Made by a program: the position numbers and the translations under genes. A DNA stretch of 57,238 nt from Candidatus Endobugula sertula (lineage in GTDB: Bacteria > Pseudomonadota > Gammaproteobacteria > Pseudomonadales > Cellvibrionaceae). How positions within the stretch are numbered: the stretch's first letter is position 1; every line of letters starts with the position of its first letter. The notes below the pieces were generated by a model. That model was given only the letters and a program-made list of their open reading frames with translations, was not told the DNA's origin and searched no databases. The stretch lies in assembly GCA_001723645.1 (NCBI GenBank), contig MDLC01000015.1:1-57238 (forward strand). Direction: 5' to 3'. This document shows, piece after piece, positions 1 to 7,643 of the stretch.

Positions 1-16
1 AGAACATTCTGAATGC

Positions 17-817
17 TTAGGAAGAAAAAGCGATCATGTTTAATCGTTGGCGGTGATCATCTTCAGTGGAATACGCAGCGAGTATATTTCCATTGAGATT
101 AGGTGTAAACACACCATCATCAGTCTCGACAAATATATTTGCAATGCTCGTCTCTTCAATATAAGTATGAGTAGCAGCATCAAGCCATAGTATTGCATCA
201 TACTGATCTTTATTTATTAACGAATTAGGGAGATGGGTATGACTATAATTGGCCGCTGTTTTAGCCACTCCAACACCATTTGGCGCTGTACGCCCGTAAT
301 GCATTTCTACCAGTAAGTTTTGCCCTTCTTCTTTATAGGGCCTTATAAATGGTGCACACAAAACAATAAACTCATATGCATTTGATGGCATTGGGATGAT
401 ATGTCCGCGGGAGCCAAAGACAATAGGGCGCAAATATAATATGCTTGAACAGAATGGTTTATTCCACTGTTCTTCGATTTCAGAGACCAATTTAAGCGCC
501 CGATAAAATAATGACTTATCGGGTGAAGGCATACACAGTCTATTGCAAGAAGTAACTAACCGCTGATAATAACGTTCTGGTCAAAAAAAATAAATTTCTC
601 CATTCAATTTTGTAGCAAAACACCCCTCAAAAATACTTTGCCCATACTGTATTCCAGACGCACCCACATCAATCATTCGCCTTGAGCCTTCACTCAAACC
701 TTTACTTATCCATTTATTATTTTGATGAGTTGCACTATAAGAAAAAGGAGACCAACCTGGCATTGTATGAAACAATGTAGATTTTTCTTTCTTCGGTATT
801 TTTTCTTCTAACTCCAT
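17..817 (-). pseudogene. Fold-type IV (branched-chain/IlvE-like) aminotransferase, interrupted by an in-frame TGA
   Basis: Track ORFs 581..817 and 17..532 share one frame: ...GEIYFF-TGA-PERYYQRLVTSCNRLCMPSPDK... Motifs QSIFEGCFA, LYLRPIVFG, AKTAANY and EETSIANIF fit BCAT-type enzymes. The TGA (581-583) sits where the family has Arg (F-R-P). The C-terminus after GNIL diverges and is short. Confidence 0.75.
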
Positions 818-829
818 GTCTATACCCTC

Positions 830-1300
830 TTACATTACTTTTTTCCATAGGAAAATAAATGGTAAATTTTTCCACATAACTATTATCGCCAATCCTAAAA
901 ATACAGCCAAAGACCCGACTAGTCTTATCGTACTAAATTGTTCACCCAATAAAATTGTTGCCAAAGTCATAGAAAAAACGGGAACTAATAATGTAAAAGG
1001 AGACACTATAGCCACAGAATATTTTTTAAGCAATTTACCCCATATAGCAAATGCCCAAATTGTTCCACATAAACCAGTATAAAGAAGTACACTAAAGCCT
1101 TCCCAGCCCATATTTTTAACTGCAGAGAATTGATCCTCTTCAAATATTATAGACAGTATTAAGAGTGGTAATGGAGGAATAACGCTAGCCCAAACCATAA
1201 GCCTCATTTGATTTGATGGCTTTGCGCTTCTCATCAAAATTTGTGTAACTCCCCAAAAAAAAGTAGCAAGAAATGCCCAAAATATATCTACTATCTTCAT
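830..1300 (-). CDS. EamA-domain (DMT superfamily) membrane protein, single 5-TM domain (half-size or truncated)
   Basis: 156 aa with about five hydrophobic helices. FWG motif near the N-terminus and a LLGE..S....G tail, typical of EamA repeats. Usual family members have two such domains. Confidence 0.6.
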   Translation of the reverse strand: MKIVDIFWAFLATFFWGVTQILMRSAKPSNQMRLMVWASVIPPLPLLILSIIFEEDQFSAVKNMGWEGFSVLLYTGLCGTIWAFAIWGKLLKKYSVAIVSPFTLLVPVFSMTLATILLGEQFSTIRLVGSLAVFLGLAIIVMWKNLPFIFLWKKVM

Positions 1301-1326
1301 AATTAATCCTATTGAAATCTTATCTT

Positions 1327-2720
1327 TTATCTTCCAGTTATCAACTTATTAGCTTTTATATTTTCATTATCTAAAATCATTTTATGCGGATCGTAAAAAC
1401 GCAATATCTTTAAACCATCTGAAGATCCACTTAATGAGATTAAGTTACAAGGCTCGTTAGAATGATTAGTAAGCTTATTAATATTTTTATTAGAAAAGCC
1501 AGAAAATCTACTAAGAATAGGCAAATTTTCGAATTTATTTTCAGCAACCATTTCAAGCTCTTCTTTAATCTGTATTATCAAACATTGATCATCCTGATGA
1601 CGCCATGCGAGATATTCATCTAGTCGTTCCATTCCGTTAATAAAAGGGCTGGCTACCATCATATATAAGTTATCTTCCGACAAATCAAAATTGTCTCTGG
1701 CAAATTCCTCGCTTGCTTTTTTTCTATCAAGAATGTCGTCATCGGTTTTGTAAGGGTGCAGAGCGGTTTTTATCATGCTTTCGCTATATGATTTTTTATC
1801 CATTAACTTAGTTACTAATGCCAAGTACTCCTTAATTCCGCAGATATATCCTCTACCCTCAAAGTCAGCCAGCAGACCTCTTAAATGAGCCATAAGCATG
1901 GGATTTTGACAATCTGACTCTGTAAAATTAAATGCATCGTCCCTCAAAGAAAAGCCCAAGAAGTTTTCCATAAATTCTTTATGTGAATCATAGCTATATT
2001 CAGTTTCATCAAAAACCGTAAAATATTGCGGCAGATTAATATTTGCTTTAGCCAAACTAGAAAAAGAGTAAAAATCATTTTCAGCATAATCGCCTTCCAT
2101 GATACTATCATAATAAGCTGTATTTATTTCGCTCAATTTATCAAATAAACCACCCCAGCTTGTATTCTTTTTATCAATTTTTCCTAGACCAAAATCTTTA
2201 CTTACCTTTTGAACCCATGTCCAATACCCAAGAATTTCAGAACTTGAATCTCCCGTAATAACAAAATCTATTTCGCCCTGGTTTTCTATCACATATTTAG
2301 CTATCACATTCATCAAGCCAAGGTTGCAACCATTACAAAATGTCTCTCTTCCATTCTCTTGAGAAAGATGACCAGATATAAGTATTTCCTCTTTAAAATA
2401 CTGGACTAAATCACCTGAAATAGAGCCTTTTTTAACTCAACATAGTGACCACCTCGTACAGCAGTACGCACACTTATATCTGAAGACTCGCGAACTGAAA
2501 GTGACTCAAAAACATTTTCTATATTCTCAAAAACACCTTGAGGGACACCTGGGTGAATCATTATCACAACATGAAGATGAAAGCTTTCCCCGTACTTCTT
2601 TTTTAAGATAAGCTGCATCAATCTTACATAAGCCAGTGTCCATGCAGAGTCTTTTCCGCCACCAAATGGTAAGAGGATATGCGCTTTTTGAAGAGGGCGG
2701 AAATTTGTTAACGACAACAA
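1327..2720 (-). pseudogene. PP-loop (GGGKDS) ATP-pyrophosphatase superfamily protein, frameshifted in an A6 run
   Basis: ORF 2406..2720 carries LLPFGGGKDSAW (PP-loop). The frame of ORF 1327..2316 stays open upstream to 2436 (VKKGSISGDLVQYFKEE...FCNGCNLGLMNVIAKY). Adding one A to the coding-strand A6 run (plus-strand T6 at 2428-2433) fuses both into one ORF of about 465 aa. Confidence 0.6.
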
Positions 2721-2891
2721 TTATCTTACGATTTTTCCGCAAGTTCTTTTTGTTCAATACCAATGTTTTTACTTAATTGTAAGTAAGTATATTCATCCGT
2801 AATAGAAAAATTCATAGCAATAATATTGTTTAGTTAAAATTAGCTATATTTATAACAAATTATAAATATAGCTGAAAAATTACTTATTAGA

Positions 2892-3878
2892 TTAAAAAGT
2901 AAATGGGGATTCTACGCTACGATCAAAGAGACAAACATCGGCAATGTTACGCTTACCCGTTATAAATTTAATTAGACGCTGAATCCCTAATCCACCGCCA
3001 GCTGTTTTGGGGATATGATTCAGCTTCGCTAGGGATAAATAATTTTCATAAGGCTCGAAATCCATACCCAACTCCTCCATTCTACGAACAATACTATTGT
3101 ATTCATATTCACGCTCAGCGCCTGATAGACTTTCACCATACCCCTCTGGATAAATAAGATCAAAGTTACGATAGATGCCCACCGCATTCGGATCTTCTAA
3201 GTCGTAAAATTCCTTCTTGAAGCTTGTTACAAAAGCTGGCGCACTAGAACTATTGGTAACTTCCTGACATATTTCGTCTTCACTCCTACTGTCACCAATT
3301 GTTGTAATTCTCTCAAACGGCTCATCCCAATCTAGCAGCTCCCTACCTAACAACTGCAGTTCACTTTCACATTGGGCTTTTACAGCCTTAATGGTATGCT
3401 TAAATAGCATTTCGACAAAATCCATTACTTCATGCATGCTGGCATTTTGTATTTCCATGTCAAATTGAGAAAACTCTAATAAATGGTTTGAGCTTGATTT
3501 AACTTTCCTTTTTTCTAAACGAATATTTGGTGAAACTATATATAGTTTTTCAATACTTGGAGACATTAAGGCTAACTGCTTGTGAAAAATCATACTTGCT
3601 GTCAACTTCAGATTTTTTTCTTCGTACTTTATATCTGCCGAATAAACTGAATGATTCAGAGGATCTGTAATTGGAGATAGCAAAAGGGGCATAATTTGTT
3701 TAAATCCATGCTGATTGGCATAATTTTGCAGCTCAGATAAAACAACAGATTGAATATGTTGTATGGCTCCCACTTCATAGCCCATTTCACCTAAAAGCAA
3801 TTGCATGAATATAAGATTCCGGCTGTGACTATCAGACGGCAAAGTCGTTAGCACAACAATACCTTTATGTTTTTGCAT
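2892..3878 (-). CDS. Class II aminoacyl-tRNA-synthetase-like catalytic core (AsnA/AspRS/AsnRS type, no anticodon-binding domain) preceded by a ~40-aa B12-binding-domain fragment
   Basis: Motif-2-like NHLLEFSQFDMEI and motif-3-like GGGLGIQRLIKFITG. SPNIRLEK and GESLSGAEREYEY also fit AspRS/AsnRS cores. The N-terminus KGIVVLTTLPSDSHSRNLI..GYEV resembles the start of glutamate mutase S (DxHxxG region) and then stops. An alternative upstream ATG lies at 3908. Confidence 0.65.
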   Translation of the reverse strand: MQKHKGIVVLTTLPSDSHSRNLIFMQLLLGEMGYEVGAIQHIQSVVLSELQNYANQHGFKQIMPLLLSPITDPLNHSVYSADIKYEEKNLKLTASMIFHKQLALMSPSIEKLYIVSPNIRLEKRKVKSSSNHLLEFSQFDMEIQNASMHEVMDFVEMLFKHTIKAVKAQCESELQLLGRELLDWDEPFERITTIGDSRSEDEICQEVTNSSSAPAFVTSFKKEFYDLEDPNAVGIYRNFDLIYPEGYGESLSGAEREYEYNSIVRRMEELGMDFEPYENYLSLAKLNHIPKTAGGGLGIQRLIKFITGKRNIADVCLFDRSVESPFTF

Positions 3879-3888
3879 GAGAAATTCC

Positions 3889-5148
3889 CTATACCATATT
3901 GAAATCATATTTGAATTTATTAAATGAAAGCATATTCAGCAGATCGGAGGACGATAGCAGTTTCTTTTTTTTATAGATGGTGTTTTTAAGGTAATCTGGA
4001 AAGGGTATCTTCCCGACTTCCGCCCATTGAATACTGCCTGCATGGTCAACCCAAGAGCTTGCCAATTTTTTATTGTCATTGTGTAAACAGTACGGGATAT
4101 CTAAGTAACCTTTTTTAAAAGACAACTCTATCGCGCTGCCTATATCAGATGATGTATTCAATACGGCGCTAACAATTGATCTTGCCTGCTGAAAAATAAT
4201 TTCACTATTCCAATGAATTTTAGACTCTTCAACAAAACACTTCTTATTTTCTGCATTTGAAGCCCACTCTATGGCCATGACATTATCTTGTATTGATGGA
4301 ATACCATGCGCTTCTGATGCAGTTTTTACAATTAATCGAGGTATACCTGCCCGCTTTGCAATCCATGTACTATCCTCAATAATGGATTTTGCACCTGACT
4401 CTGTTGCAGGGAACATCCCCATAAATGTATACATAACTATATGCCAAGTAGTGGGCTGCAAAAATTCTTCTGCTAGTAACTGTAACGCAGCTAGAGCTCC
4501 TAAATCCTGCTCCAAATTTGACCCTTGCGCATAACTCAATGAAACTGAGGACACTCCATTGGCCTGCATAAACATGCATTCCAAAACTGTTATGGCAACA
4601 AGCATTGATGGAGGGCATAACTGACCAAGTAAACAACCGCCAAAAGACTCGATATGCAGAGGACGCGTACTTGTTGAGTTCTCACCGAATAACTGACAGC
4701 TTTCCGCCCAAGCTTTAACACTTGCTTTCAATGGCTCCCTACCATAAGGCATACAATATGATATTGGTCCTCCTTCAGTTGCATCTAAACCCATTTCTAA
4801 AATAGATTTAAAAATTTCTATTGGCTTTGCACAACCATGCCGAACCTGTATAGAAAAATCAGAATCAAAAATACCGTCAATAAGCGAGGCATTTTCATTT
4901 TTTTCAAAAGAAACTATGGGATAACCATTCAACTCTTTTTTCATTTCTACTGCTTCTTTTGCTGTAGAAAATTTTAACTGCCTTGTAAAGCTATCTATGG
5001 TTATAGTTCCTACGGTAGAGAACCCACAATGCTTAACTGCCAATAAGCCTGTCCTCATTTGCTCCGGCGATGAAAAAACCATCCTCGGCTGAAGCAAAAG
5101 GTGACCCTTCTCAATAGCCGCAGTTATAAAGTTATGAAAACTACTCAT
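3889..5148 (-). CDS. Methylaspartate (glutamate) mutase E-subunit-like protein
   Basis: Colinear blocks recalled from clostridial GlmE/MutE: QPRMV.., TIDSFTRQ, LNGYPIV, RHGCAKP, EGGPISYCMPYG, CPPSM, FMGMFP..ESGA, LIVKTASEAHGIPS. Confidence 0.75.
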   Translation of the reverse strand: MSSFHNFITAAIEKGHLLLQPRMVFSSPEQMRTGLLAVKHCGFSTVGTITIDSFTRQLKFSTAKEAVEMKKELNGYPIVSFEKNENASLIDGIFDSDFSIQVRHGCAKPIEIFKSILEMGLDATEGGPISYCMPYGREPLKASVKAWAESCQLFGENSTSTRPLHIESFGGCLLGQLCPPSMLVAITVLECMFMQANGVSSVSLSYAQGSNLEQDLGALAALQLLAEEFLQPTTWHIVMYTFMGMFPATESGAKSIIEDSTWIAKRAGIPRLIVKTASEAHGIPSIQDNVMAIEWASNAENKKCFVEESKIHWNSEIIFQQARSIVSAVLNTSSDIGSAIELSFKKGYLDIPYCLHNDNKKLASSWVDHAGSIQWAEVGKIPFPDYLKNTIYKKKKLLSSSDLLNMLSFNKFKYDFNMV

Positions 5149-5604
5149 TTGGTCAAGTCTCTTTTACTGAAGCATTCGTAAACGGGCTAATCCAGACAGT
5201 GCTTAATTCAGAATTCTTATTTTCTGATCACTACTAAAGCGATAAGCAGTTTTTTGGCGCAAAAATAATTTCTTTATGGTATAGCGCTATCAAGTAGTAA
5301 TCTTGCATTATTCTATTCCTTTTCGCTCAGGCGAAATTTGCTTGCTGTATCGATAAACCTTATTTGATATTTTATACCACACATACCAAAACATTCAGTC
5401 AACTATACTGTGAGCACTTGGATTCAAACTGTTATAGATCTTATCTTCTTTGGATAACAGCCAATTTCTACAAGCACTCTTAGCTAAAATATTCTAAATA
5501 CTGTACTCTGAAAATACTTTAATGTCTTCCACCTAAACCATGCTTTTATAAACTTAGAGCAGCAGAGCGCATTATAAACAGCCCCCCAATCGTACGATTG
5601 TTAA

Positions 5605-5754
5605 AGCTGAGAGTGTTTGTTTAAATCAGTTTTGAGAATCGTCCTGAGAGGAGCGATATCCTATCCACAACAAGTTACCTGCTCGCACGACCATTAGCTG
5701 GGAGCTATTTGTTTAAATCAGCTTTGGGAATCGCCCTGAGAGGAACAACATCCC
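5605..5754. repeat. Two tandem copies (91-bp period) of a ~57-bp element in the intergenic region upstream of the mutase-like operon
   Basis: Copy 1, starting at 5605: agctgagagtgtttgtttaaatcagttttgagaatcgtcctgagaggagcgatatcc. Copy 2, starting at 5696: agctgggagctatttgtttaaatcagctttgggaatcgccctgagaggaacaacatcc. Confidence 0.8.
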
Positions 5755-5991
5755 AAATACACCAATGATTTGAGAACATGCTAATACAATTATTTATCGT
5801 ATTACAACTTCTCTTTTATGGAAATTGATATACATCACAGAAAATAAAATTATTTTTGTTCACAATAACAATGCGGTAAACCCAATTTTATTATATAGAT
5901 GAAAAATTCTTTAATAATAAATAATGGCGATAAATTCAATGAAATATGCCCTGCTTTTTTTTGCTATTGCCTTATCGTCTTGGCTAATTGC

Positions 5992-6291
5992 TTATTCAAG
6001 TAATCCAATAATGTCTTTTGGGAGATAATCTTGCGGATTGTTATAACCAAGCGTGTAGCCACTCTTCTCATCAGGCCAATATTTTATATTATCTTTTTTG
6101 ATGGAATAGATAATTGTATTATGTAATCCTCACTCTACAAGTTCAACTTTATAGCCTGCTTGTATCAGCACTGATTGCACTTGTCATGTTTCAATTTGAC
6201 CATCACCATTATTAAGTCCAAATTTATTAAAGGCTTCTTCCCATTGCCATTCATAGGAGCCTCCACAATTATCACATTCTGATATGGGCAT
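5992..6291 (-). pseudogene. 100-codon reading frame with two internal TGA codons (unknown small protein)
   Basis: Hand translation: MPISECDNCGGSYEWQWEEAFNKFGLNNGDGQIET-TGA-QVQSVLIQAGYKVELVE-TGA-GLHNTIIYSIKKDNIKYWPDEKSGYTLGYNNPQDYLPKDIIGLLE-TAA. Apart from the two TGAs the frame is uninterrupted. Confidence 0.4.
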
Positions 6292-6618
6292 GATTTTATT
6301 CCTTTCCAAATTTGTAAGTAATGTCATGAACCATGTACATAACGATGATTGCTGACTGCATCCAGTTTTTTATCTGAAATCCGGCATGGTTGATTGGTGA
6401 CTTGTATCGTTCCATACTTCAAACGTACAACACGGACATAGGACGATTTAAAATTGGTCGGATCATGGTCAATAACAACCTCTATGATCTTTCCATTTTC
6501 ATTTCCATCAGGAGTTGATCGTAGTGTAATAAGTTTCATGTCTTTCCCTATTGTTTAAATGATGCGACATTGCATCTTTGAAACCCGCCCAATTAAACGG
6601 GTTTCTACAGATACCATC

Positions 6619-6795
6619 ACGTATCACTGGTTGTCGGCACTGTTGACGCATGGGTATTTCCAGCGCTCTTGGCGTATCAGGTAAGCGAATAATAGGTTCA
6701 AGATAGCGATGGTTAACGCTGCGAATCTCGCAGCGTAATGTTCCCCAGGAAGCGTGTATTTCTTCACAAGCAAAGCCTGTCATACTATTTGGCAT
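6619..6795 (-). pseudogene. yicC: yicC N-terminal remnant
   Basis: Within ORF 6508..6858, MPNSMTGFA...EIRSVNHRYLEPIIRLPD matches the YicC-family N-terminus. Similarity ends after about 60 aa. The position, divergent from rph, matches the enterobacterial yicC-rph arrangement. Confidence 0.6.
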
Positions 6796-6914
6796 AGAGA
6801 ACCATTCTGCAGGTTGGTATTTGAAAACCATTAACCACAAAATAATAACACAGCACATCGACTTTTTGCGGTAAACTAGGCGTTATTTTCCCCATTATTA
6901 TCCGTAGGTTTATT

Positions 6915-7643
6915 ATGCAGCGTCCCAGTGGTAGAACCGCAGATCAAACTCGCCCTATCCGTTTAACCAAAAACTTTACCAAACATGCCGAAGGCTCTGT
7001 TCTCGTTGAATTTGGTGATACCAAGGTTATTTGTAATGCCAGTATTGATAATAGTGTTCCCGGCTTTTTACGTGGGCAGGGTTCAGGGTGGATTACTGCA
7101 GAATACGGTATGTTGCCACGCTCAACAGGTTCACGTATGGGACGCGAGGCAACGAGGGGCAAACAAACTGGACGTACCATAGAGATACAACGCTTAATCG
7201 GTCGCTCACTACGTGCAGCAGTCAATCTCAATATTCTTGGTGAACGCACAATTACTATCGATTGTGATGTTATTCAGGCGGATGGAGGTACACGCACCGC
7301 TTCTATAACTGGTGCTAGTGTTGCTTTAGCAGACGCATTGCAACGCTTAGTAGCCAATGGTACGTTAAAGAGTAATCCGCTAGTCCGTATGGTTGCTTCC
7401 ATCTCCGTAGGTATCTATGAAAATGAAGCAGTATTAGACTTGGACTATCTGGAAGATTCTGCTGCTGATACCGATATGAATATTGTCATGGCCGATGATG
7501 GCGGGATGATTGAAATTCAGGGTACGGCAGAGGGGAAGCCATTTAGTGAAGCTGAATTTGCGCAAATGCTGGCTTTAGCGAAGAAAGGCATTCAAGAATT
7601 GCGGACGCATCAACAGGCCTGTCTTCATAGTATGTCTGGATGA
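6915..7643 (+). CDS. rph: Ribonuclease PH
   Basis: [36 protein letters not shown], and the [19 protein letters not shown] motifs. 242 aa. Confidence 0.95.

What the first reader, a model, noticed from the sequence alone, without database searches (positions are those of the whole stretch)
2892..3908. About 40 residues of a B12-binding domain joined directly to an aaRS-like core
**Observed in the sequence.**
- The N-terminus MQKHKGIVVLTTLPSDSHSRNLIFMQLLLGEMGYEV aligns with the start of glutamate mutase S, as I remember it (KTIVLGVIGSDCHAVGNKIL...GFNV).
- The Gly of the DxHxxG motif is replaced by Asn.
- After about 40 aa the sequence switches to a class II aaRS catalytic domain.
- A complete B12-binding domain needs about 130 aa.

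**Inference.**
- The most economical reading is a deletion that fused the 5' end of a mutS-like gene to the next gene. That would leave the mutase without its cobalamin subunit.
- A genuine new domain fusion is the less likely alternative.
Basis: partly seen in the sequence, partly recalled or inferred. Interest (0 to 1): 0.5.

Follow-up and report, generated by a model that had tools for sequence, protein, structure and literature searches.

The report
Deletion scar fusing two genes
A 621-base in-frame deletion in the bryostatin symbiont 'Candidatus Endobugula sertula' removed most of a vitamin-B12-binding subunit gene and joined its first 36 codons to the next gene, an asparagine-synthetase-like ligase, inside a biosynthetic gene cluster that is falling apart; this is ordinary gene decay, not a new domain architecture.

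Summary
On the minus strand, an ORF (2892..3878, 328 aa; maximal ORF to 3908) starts with 36 residues of a glutamate-mutase-S-like B12-binding subunit. It then continues as a class II aaRS-type (archaeal AsnA-like) catalytic core.

The two closest relatives, both uncultured (ligase 71% and 68% identical), have the same gene order: mutE-like, mutS-like (148/143 aa), ligase (318 aa). The three genes are separate. Against the closer one, the window lacks exactly 621 nt: mutS codons 37-148, the spacer and ligase codons 1-26, in frame.

The neighbouring genes are also damaged:
- the PP-loop gene has frameshifts and stops;
- the EamA exporter has lost one of its two domains;
- the aminotransferase has a nonsense codon and has lost its GITR motif.

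The mutE-like gene and the ligase core are still intact and show no accelerated evolution, so the decay is recent.

Seventeen of 19 bacterial loci with this ligase subfamily have a separate, full-length S-subunit gene. No natural fusion was found among 5.8 billion proteins.

The Asn in place of the DxHxxG glycine is a trait of this S-subunit subfamily (SDxHxWN in 16/16), not a sign of degeneration.

Verdict: a deletion-derived chimeric ORF in a decaying gene island. Interest is low.

The parts
2892..3878 (-). Chimeric ORF of 328 aa plus stop (the maximal ORF extends to the ATG at 3908). It consists of a mutS-like stub followed by an AsnA-like ligase core.
   Evidence: The identical ORF was called in two independent assemblies.
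3771..3878 (-). Remnant of the mutS-like (B12-binding S subunit) gene, codons 1-36. It covers strand 1, the SDSHSRN cobalt-ligand loop and helix 1.
   Evidence: 75% identical to L001 MutS residues 9-36. HMM positions 6-38 of 146. AF2 pLDDT is 30-52 for residues 1-30.
3765..3776 (-). Deletion junction. It most likely lies between 3771 (the last base of the Val36 codon GTG) and 3770 (the first base of the Gly37 codon GGA), with an ambiguity of 2 codons.
   Evidence: The tblastn HSPs of MutS (ending at 3771) and of the ligase (starting at 3776) are in the same frame. Codon-level comparison. The blastn gap is 122 nt in the window against 747 nt in L001.
2892..3770 (-). Ligase core: a class II aaRS-type catalytic domain of the archaeal asparagine synthetase A type. 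It corresponds to residues 27-318 of the intact 318-aa orthologue; the native N-terminal ~26 residues and the native start codon are lost.
   Evidence: PF00152 at 122 bits. NF005054 at 283 bits, below the 309 cutoff. PDB 1nnh/3p8t at E 3e-49. All family-invariant residues are kept.
3889..5148 (-). mutE-like gene (catalytic subunit of a glutamate-mutase-like enzyme), 419 aa, with an intact reading frame.
   Evidence: PF06368 at 287 bits. TIGR01503 at 171 bits, below the 390 cutoff. 64% identical to L001 MutE without gaps. No rate acceleration.
1327..2815 (-). Pseudogene of the ~500-aa PP-loop (GGGKDS) enzyme of the cluster. The start frame ends at a TAA at 2728..2726. There is a TAA in the PP-loop frame at 2723..2721. 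There is a frameshift in an A-run at about 2426..2435.
   Evidence: All 40 homologues are about 490-540 aa, against the 328 aa annotated here.
830..1300 (-). EamA exporter remnant of 156 aa. An in-frame 411-nt deletion between the two internal repeats, at the FFWG codons, removed one of the two EamA domains.
17..817 (-). Class IV (branched-chain-type) aminotransferase pseudogene. It has an in-frame stop at 581..583, has lost 12 codons including the LPGITR motif (near 70-82), and ends early at 17..19. The contig ends just beyond.

Best explanation
The ORF is the scar of a single 621-nt in-frame deletion in a horizontally acquired biosynthetic gene island (36% G+C, against about 42% in the rest of the window) of 'Candidatus Endobugula sertula'.

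Ancestral state. The island carried mutE-like, mutS-like, an AsnA-like ligase, a PP-loop enzyme, an EamA exporter and a class IV aminotransferase, followed in the intact relative by a PanB-like enzyme and a DcaP porin.

The deletion. It removed mutS codons 37-148 and the stop codon, the intergenic spacer, and the first ~26 codons of the ligase gene, including its own start. The mutS ribosome-binding site, start codon and first 36 codons now read straight into the ligase catalytic core.

Consequences.
- A 36-residue stub (strand 1, ligand loop, helix 1) cannot form the ~135-residue Rossmann-like B12-binding fold. The mutE-like catalytic subunit has therefore lost its cobalamin-carrying partner, and the mutase step is dead. 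This is inferred from the E2S2 architecture of glutamate mutase.
- The PP-loop, exporter and aminotransferase genes carry independent inactivating lesions, so the whole pathway is non-functional and the chimeric ORF is best regarded as a pseudogene.
- mutE and the ligase core remain intact and show no excess of substitutions. The decay is therefore evolutionarily recent.

Shown: the deletion, its extent and frame, the other lesions, the separate genes in relatives, and the absence of natural fusions. Inferred: loss of mutase activity, loss of pathway function, and the order and recency of the events.
For: Source and anatomy:
- The window is the E. sertula contig.
- Pfam finds a class II core from residue 48 of the 338-aa ORF, and Met_asp_mut_E in the upstream ORF.

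Separate genes in relatives:
- Intact syntenic clusters have separate genes: L001-L004 and L090.

The deletion:
- tblastn places MutS residues 9-36 at 3854..3771 and ligase residues 25-318 at 3776..2895, in the same frame.
- The size is 621 nt = 207 codons.
- An HMM of 16 S subunits matches only profile positions 6-38 of 146.

Other lesions:
- PP-loop gene frameshifts and stops.
- EamA 411-nt internal deletion.
- Aminotransferase nonsense codon, loss of GITR and early stop.

Not an artefact and not a natural fusion:
- Two further assemblies have an identical sequence.
- 17 of 19 bacterial loci of this ligase subfamily have a separate, full-length S subunit plus MutE.
- No natural MutS-ligase fusion appears among the top hits to a synthetic fusion query.

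Supporting detail:
- G+C is 36.2% for the island and 36.3% for the L001 cluster, against 41.7% for the rest of the window.
- The invariant Trp of SDxHxWN is replaced by Arg in the stub.
- In the AF2 model the stub has low confidence and the core is confident.
Against: - The deletion is in frame and keeps a plausible translation start.
- The ligase core retains every family-invariant residue.
- Neither the ligase nor MutE shows accelerated evolution relative to the intact orthologue.
- A still-active ligase therefore cannot be excluded.
- In Thermoanaerobaculia loci (L011, L015) the ligase is paired with the PP-loop gene and no mutase lies nearby. The ligase is therefore not strictly mutase-dependent.
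- A second S-subunit gene elsewhere in the genome could not be searched for.
- No expression data are available.
Confidence: 0.85

Rival explanations
1. The origin by deletion is the same, but the chimeric ORF is still a working gene. It would be translated from the retained mutS start, coupled to mutE, and the AsnA-like core would still catalyse an ATP-dependent amidation, for example asparagine synthesis or another amide ligation. It would then be maintained independently of the dead pathway.
For: - The junction is in frame and the mutS SD/ATG is intact.
- All invariant ligase residues are present, with only one unique deviation, R222K.
- There is no rate acceleration.
- The alignment to Pyrococcus AS-AR starts at chain residue 10, so only a short native N-terminal segment is missing.
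- The ligase occurs without the mutase in some lineages.
Against: - An in-frame outcome has a one-in-three chance, so it carries little weight.
- The semi-conserved N-terminal F-x-x-H-I helix of the subfamily is lost.
- Its conserved partner genes, the PP-loop enzyme and the mutase S subunit, are both destroyed.
- The lack of acceleration is equally expected for a recent pseudogene.
- The subfamily scores below the NCBIfam cutoff for true asparagine synthetase A.
Confidence: 0.11
2. A genuine, evolved domain fusion: a short B12-subunit-derived N-terminal extension that has a function on the ligase, for example docking it to MutE.
For: The retained segment is the part of the S subunit that carries the cobalt-ligand loop, and it sits directly after mutE.
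Against: - None of about 120 closest ligase homologues has the extension.
- Both nearest syntenic relatives have a full S gene between mutE and the ligase.
- No fusion was found with a synthetic fusion query in 5.8 billion proteins.
- The stub covers only 33 of 146 profile positions, and its invariant Trp is mutated.
- The surrounding genes are pseudogenes.
Confidence: 0.02
3. An assembly or sequencing artefact: a collapsed or chimeric contig that joins mutS and the ligase.
For: The window is a metagenome-derived contig, and all assemblies break within about 50 nt of window position 1, which suggests a nearby repeat.
Against: - Independent Logan assemblies of two sequencing runs reproduce the junction and all the other lesions at 100% identity.
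- No repeat is shared by mutS and the ligase that could cause a collapse.
- The break is 3.7 kb away from the junction.
Confidence: 0.02

Closest known systems
Glutamate (methylaspartate) mutase S subunit, GlmS/MutS (Clostridium cochlearium / C. tetanomorphum; PDB 1CCW, 1CB7, 1BE1)
   Same: The intact orthologue of the deleted gene (L001, 148 aa) aligns with GlmS over residues 5-121 at E 2e-9. It sits next to a MutE-family gene. The window stub corresponds to GlmS strand 1, the Asp-x-His loop and helix 1.
   Different: - Only 36 of about 137-148 residues remain.
- The subfamily scores below the NCBIfam equivalog cutoffs: 68 bits against 110.
- The subfamily has SDxHxWN instead of DxHxxG.
- Its clusters are biosynthetic (NRPS, ATP-grasp, PanB-like), not the glutamate fermentation operon.
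Archaeal-type asparagine synthetase A (AS-AR; AsnRS paralogue lacking the anticodon-binding domain; Pyrococcus, PDB 1NNH, 3P8T)
   Same: It is the best solved-structure match, at E 3e-49 over residues 35-321. It is likewise a catalytic core only, of about 300 aa with no OB-fold. The best NCBIfam model is 'asparagine synthetase A'.
   Different: - The score is below the equivalog cutoff: 283 bits against 309.
- The bacterial subfamily (52-71% identical to the window) is genomically linked to the mutase S/E and PP-loop genes. The archaeal and clostridial AsnA loci (48% identity or less) are not.
- The substrate is therefore probably not plain aspartate (inference).
- In the window the native N-terminus is replaced.
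Deletion-generated chimeric ORFs and pseudogenes in host-restricted bacteria (general phenomenon of symbiont and pathogen genome decay)
   Same: - An intragenic and intergenic deletion joins two neighbouring genes.
- Several independent lesions (frameshift in a homopolymer run, nonsense codon, repeat-mediated deletion) fall in one dispensable cluster.
- The organism is an uncultured, vertically transmitted symbiont.
   Different: E. sertula was described as lacking overt genome reduction (cited in PMC5850076). This is therefore a local example of decay rather than part of a massively eroded genome.

Membership tests
B12-binding domain / glutamate mutase S subunit (PF02310; NF002612, TIGR01501) | A complete Rossmann-like alpha/beta domain of about 120-140 residues that matches the profile end to end | tested here: not met
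   There is no Pfam hit for the fused ORF or for the 36-aa stub. The family HMM matches only positions 6-38 of 146. The intact orthologue L001 does hit PF02310 (29 bits, below the 32.1 cutoff) and NF002612 (68 bits, below 110).
B12-binding domain / glutamate mutase S subunit | The Asp-x-His-x-x-Gly cobalt-ligand motif | tested here: inconclusive
   Asp and His are present (SDSHSRN), and Gly is replaced by Asn. All 16 intact cluster-type S subunits also have Asn (SDxHxWN), so this is a subfamily variant. The invariant Trp is Arg in the window.
B12-binding domain / glutamate mutase S subunit | The downstream cofactor-binding elements (the S-x-L and G-G regions on strands 3-4) | tested here: not met
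   These elements are deleted. The window sequence switches to the ligase after residue 36.
Class II aminoacyl-tRNA synthetase, subclass IIb (Asp/Asn/Lys) | Catalytic core matching PF00152 | tested here: met
   122 bits against a cutoff of 25, covering profile positions 20-306 of 308.
Class II aminoacyl-tRNA synthetase, subclass IIb (Asp/Asn/Lys) | An N-terminal OB-fold anticodon-binding domain, needed for tRNA charging | tested here: not met
   The protein begins at the catalytic core. AsnRS and AspRS structures align only from their residue ~132 onward. Homologues are 305-320 aa.
Asparagine synthetase A, archaeal type (NF005054 / PRK06462) | A score above the NCBIfam equivalog cutoff | tested here: not met
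   283.4 bits against a cutoff of 309.
Asparagine synthetase A, archaeal type (NF005054 / PRK06462) | ATP-dependent amidation of aspartate | not testable with these tools
   This needs an enzyme assay. The genomic linkage to the mutase and PP-loop genes suggests a different substrate (inference).
Glutamate mutase E subunit (PF06368; TIGR01503), for the upstream gene | Full-length match to the MutE profile, and a score above the equivalog cutoff | tested here: inconclusive
   PF06368 scores 287 bits against a cutoff of 26.6, so family membership is met. TIGR01503 scores 171 bits against 390, so the equivalog is not met.

The most novel reading that the evidence does not exclude
The chimera is not dead. 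The retained S-subunit stub is the segment that in glutamate mutase lies at the E/S interface. In this reading it tethers a still-active AsnA-like ligase to the MutE-like protein, or simply supplies the ligase with a new translation start, so that E. sertula keeps a repurposed amide ligase from an otherwise discarded pathway.

Separately, the intact relatives define an uncharacterised and widespread biosynthetic module for which no literature was found. It comprises a glutamate-mutase-like E/S pair with an SDxHxWN motif, an AsnRS-derived ligase, a novel PP-loop enzyme and often a PanB-like enzyme. It is seen in Pseudomonas, Burkholderia, Methylobacter, Salinisphaera and Coxiella-like MAGs, sometimes next to NRPS genes.
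Probability: 0.08. Interest if true: 0.55.

Novelty: already known. Interest (0 to 1): 0.15.

Why it matters
As a structural or functional novelty it does not matter. The apparent 'B12 stub plus aaRS core' architecture is a deletion scar, and it should be annotated as a pseudogene or chimeric remnant rather than as a new domain combination or an aminoacyl-tRNA synthetase.

It has modest value in three respects:
- It documents recent, ongoing loss of a horizontally acquired small-molecule pathway in the bryostatin-producing symbiont, whose genome has been described as not overtly reduced.
- It gives a dated-by-synteny example of two in-frame deletions, one of them mediated by an internal repeat.
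- It points to an uncharacterised conserved gene module in free-living proteobacteria that could be worth studying in an organism where it is intact. The module comprises a mutase E/S pair with SDxHxWN, an AsnA-like ligase and a PP-loop enzyme.

Tried and rejected
- Literature. Six searches on glutamate mutase combined with asparagine synthetase, ATP-grasp, PanB, aaRS or siderophore found nothing on this cluster type. The E. sertula genome paper (PMC5086551) is not held.
- Junction in other samples. An exact search for the junction sequence in JGI metagenome contigs gave no match, so no confirmation from another sample collection was obtained beyond the two Logan assemblies.
- RNA elements. 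An Rfam scan of 1..7000 found no cobalamin riboswitch or other credible RNA; the only hit was a sub-threshold isrD match.
- Defence systems. PADLOC gave no hits.
- Relaxed selection. Relative-rate and invariant-site tests on the ligase and on MutE were not significant. They cannot distinguish a recent pseudogene from a functional gene.
- PP-loop protein. It has no sequence match in the PDB. By fold (AF2 plus Foldseek) there is only a weak PP-loop ATP-pyrophosphatase resemblance in the N-terminal domain.
- Deletion mechanism. Microhomology at the mutS/ligase breakpoints could not be assessed, because the relatives are about 30% diverged at the DNA level.
- Organism check. The genome-contig scan did not return E. 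sertula itself among its 80 loci. A second S-subunit gene elsewhere in that genome therefore could not be looked for.
- Small ORF. The ORF with two in-frame TGA codons has no Pfam family and no homologue in the fetched loci.
Full report
**What is there**

The window is a 57,238-bp contig of 'Candidatus Endobugula sertula', the bryostatin-producing symbiont of Bugula neritina. The ORF product is 100% identical to NCBI protein AB835_05625 from a contig of exactly this length.

The finding lies on the minus strand. The maximal ORF is 2892..3908 (338 aa). That ATG is preceded by an AGGGA Shine-Dalgarno-like sequence and lies 10 nt after the stop codon of the upstream gene.

- Pfam places a class II aaRS (Asp/Lys/Asn) catalytic core on residues 48-330 of the 338-aa ORF, at 122 bits.
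- Pfam identifies the upstream ORF 3889..5148 as a full-length methylaspartate mutase E-chain homologue, at 287 bits.

**Checking the B12-like N-terminus**

The stub is too short for any Pfam or NCBIfam model. A direct BLASTP against Clostridium cochlearium GlmS is only marginal (E 0.018). The decisive evidence comes from orthologues.

- The closest ligase homologue (P0002, 71% identical) sits in metagenomic contigs L001-L004, in the order MutE-like (426 aa), B12-binding S-like (148 aa), 204-nt spacer, ligase (318 aa), unknown 496-aa protein, EamA exporter (297 aa), class IV aminotransferase (357 aa), PanB-like (273 aa), DcaP porin.
- The next closest (P0003, 68%) has MutE 452, S 143, a 36-nt spacer and ligase 318.
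- The L001 S protein matches glutamate mutase sigma (PDB 1CB7/1CCW, E 2e-9) and the NCBIfam 'methylaspartate mutase subunit S' models.
- tblastn of the L001 proteins against the window places S residues 9-36 at 3854..3771 (75% identity, E 2e-9). It places ligase residues 25-318 at 3776..2895 (71%, no gaps) in the same frame.
- A profile HMM I built from 16 cluster-type S subunits matches the fused ORF only over profile positions 6-38 of 146, at 34-39 bits.

**The deletion**

Measured on L001, the missing stretch is 621 nt (207 codons). It comprises S codons 37-148 plus the stop, the spacer, and ligase codons 1-26. This agrees with the blastn gap of 122 nt in the window against 747 nt in L001.

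The junction is most likely between Val36 (GTG, ending at 3771) and Gly37 (GGA). The preceding G-Y-x-V fits the S-subunit pattern and the following G-A-I-Q fits the ligase. The uncertainty is two codons.

Two independent Logan assemblies of runs SRR4020083 and SRR4020084 are 100% identical to the window over 6.8-11 kb, including the junction. This is therefore not an assembler artefact.

**The Asn in DxHxxG**

All 16 intact S subunits from this type of cluster read S-D-x-H-x-W-N-L. The Asn is a conserved trait of the subfamily, not a degenerate feature of the window. The window's real deviation is Arg in place of the invariant Trp.

**The neighbourhood is decaying as a whole**

- The 496-aa gene has a GGGKDS PP-loop motif. 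AF2 plus Foldseek show a PP-loop ATP-pyrophosphatase-like N-domain. In the window it is broken: its start frame ends at a TAA (2728..2726), the PP-loop frame has its own TAA, and a frameshift sits in an A-run near 2430. All 40 database homologues are about 490-540 aa, against the 328 aa annotated here.
- The EamA exporter has an in-frame 411-nt deletion between its two internal repeats, exactly at the repeated TTTTTTTGGGGA (FFWG) sequence. One of the two domains is left.
- The aminotransferase has an in-frame stop at 581..583, lacks 12 codons including the LPGITR motif, and terminates early at 17..19, just before the contig ends.
- The island (window 1..5148) has 36.2% G+C, the same as the L001 cluster (36.3%). 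The rest of the window has 41.7%. This suggests a horizontally acquired island. Next to it, yicC is truncated to about 57 residues of its N-terminal domain.

**What is still intact**

- The mutE-like ORF and the ligase core have no stops or frameshifts.
- The ligase keeps every residue that is invariant in a 16-sequence family alignment, with a single unique deviation.
- MutE has two unique deviations, which is within the range of its homologues.
- Tajima-type relative-rate tests against the intact orthologue show no acceleration for either gene.

The lesions are therefore recent. These tests cannot tell a young pseudogene from a gene still in use.

In the AF2 model the stub has low confidence (pLDDT 30-52 for residues 1-30) and the core is confident. 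This is weak evidence, because the alignment has no depth over the stub.

**Is the fusion a natural architecture anywhere?**

- A scan of one genome per GTDB species returned 19 bacterial loci with a ligase 52-58% identical to the window. The organisms are Pseudomonas, Burkholderia, Ramlibacter, Methylobacter, Salinisphaera, Pseudogulbenkiania, a Coxiella-like MAG and Thermoanaerobaculia.
- Seventeen of these loci have a separate, essentially full-length S gene and a MutE gene within 10 kb. Most also have the PP-loop gene, and many a PanB-like gene.
- The 61 archaeal and clostridial loci with true AsnA-like genes (48% identity or less) have none of these neighbours.
- A search of 5.8 billion proteins with a synthetic full-length S+ligase concatenate returned only stand-alone ligases of 268-386 aa among the top 120 hits. 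A real fusion would have outscored them.

The genuine-fusion alternative is therefore refuted as far as public data allow.

**Mechanism and function**

Shown:
- a single in-frame deletion joined the mutS translation start and the first 36 codons to the ligase core;
- four of the six cluster genes visible in the window carry lesions that should be inactivating: mutS, the PP-loop gene, eamA and the aminotransferase gene.

Inferred from the known E2S2 architecture of glutamate mutase, in which the S subunit carries the cobalamin and supplies the His ligand (PDB 1CCW):
- a 36-residue stub cannot bind cobalamin, so the MutE-like protein is catalytically orphaned;
- the pathway is dead.

The ancestral pathway is unknown. 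Its gene content comprises a B12 carbon-skeleton mutase, two adenylate-forming amide-type enzymes, an aminotransferase, a PanB-like hydroxymethyltransferase and an exporter. In Pseudomonas there are also two ATP-grasp ligases, a luciferase-like monooxygenase and an MFS transporter. In other organisms there is an adjacent NRPS with a formyltransferase domain. This content points to synthesis of a modified amino acid or small peptide metabolite. No paper on it was found.

**Comparison with known families**

- The ligase works like, and is closest to, the archaeal AsnRS-derived asparagine synthetase A (PDB 1NNH/3P8T, E 3e-49). It falls below the NCBIfam equivalog cutoff (283 bits against 309) and belongs to a distinct, mutase-linked bacterial subfamily.
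- It is not an aminoacyl-tRNA synthetase, because it has no anticodon-binding domain.
- The stub fails the membership test for a B12-binding domain (33 of 146 profile positions).
- MutE is a Pfam family member but not a TIGR01503 equivalog (171 bits against 390).

**Verdict**

- Correction: Asn-for-Gly is normal for this subfamily.
- Addition: the deletion is one of several lesions in a recently decaying, horizontally acquired gene island.

This is ordinary gene decay, and interest is low. The residual possibility that the chimeric ligase is still active is about 10%. The more interesting lead is the intact, uncharacterised module in free-living bacteria, not the scar in this window.

Noticed in passing
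window 830..1300 (-): The EamA exporter gene has an in-frame 411-nt deletion between its two internal homologous repeats, exactly at the repeated TTTTTTTGGGGA (Phe-Phe-Trp-Gly) sequence. This leaves a single-domain 156-aa ORF with the native start. It is a clean example of a repeat-mediated deletion that reverts a duplicated transporter to half size.
   Followed up: yes
window 6508..6858 (-), next to rph at 6915..7643 (+): yicC retains only about 57 residues that match the YicC N-terminal profile and then diverges. It appears truncated or frameshifted at the edge of the 36% G+C island. The island may have been inserted into, or deleted into, yicC.
   Followed up: partly
window 5992..6291 (-): A 99-codon reading frame is interrupted by two in-frame TGA codons (6186..6184 and 6132..6130) at positions where Trp would read well (ETWQV, VEWGL). 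TGG is used for Trp elsewhere in the same frame. It is probably a pseudogene with TGG-to-TGA mutations. It has no Pfam family and no homologue in the fetched loci.
   Followed up: partly
window 5616..5673 and 5708..5765: Two copies of a 58-nt direct repeat (81% identical, 92 nt apart) lie in the 1.1-kb non-coding stretch upstream of mutE. The repeat occurs nowhere else in the window, and there is no Rfam match. It could be a regulatory element or a remnant of a mobile element.
   Followed up: partly
L001 2771..3217; L006 8949..9359; L007-L025 (S-subunit genes): All 16 S subunits of this cluster type have an invariant S-D-x-H-x-W-N-L motif in place of the canonical D-x-H-x-x-G. The glycine of the canonical cobalamin-binding motif is thus systematically replaced by Asn, preceded by Trp. 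This hints at a distinct mode of cofactor binding in this mutase subfamily.
   Followed up: partly
L001 4460..5950 (intact); window 1327..2815 (pseudogene); L093 10001..11476 (Streptomyces): This is a family of about 500 aa with no Pfam or NCBIfam model. It has a high-confidence AF2 model (pLDDT 91) showing an N-terminal PP-loop (GGGKDS) ATP-pyrophosphatase-like domain plus a large helical domain, and invariant motifs including FTESDCxNP and DPH. It is linked to the ligase in proteobacteria, but it also occurs in a Streptomyces carrier-protein/AsnB/ATP-grasp cluster that has no mutase.
   Followed up: partly
L020 9959..19826 (Pseudomonas sp. NUPR-001); L006 and L092: A conserved, apparently undescribed gene module. 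In Pseudomonas the order is AsnA-like ligase, luciferase-like monooxygenase, MFS transporter, S subunit, ATP-grasp, PP-loop enzyme, MutE-like, ATP-grasp, PanB-like. In other bacteria the ligase-S-MutE trio sits directly upstream of an NRPS that starts with a formyltransferase domain, once together with an Asp/Asn beta-hydroxylase and a TonB-dependent receptor.
   Followed up: partly
window 1..51: The NCBI contig and two independent Logan assemblies all end within 50 nt of each other, inside the aminotransferase pseudogene. This suggests a repeat, for example an IS element, immediately beyond the window end. It may itself have truncated the cluster; the PanB-like and DcaP genes of the intact relative are not visible.
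   Followed up: no
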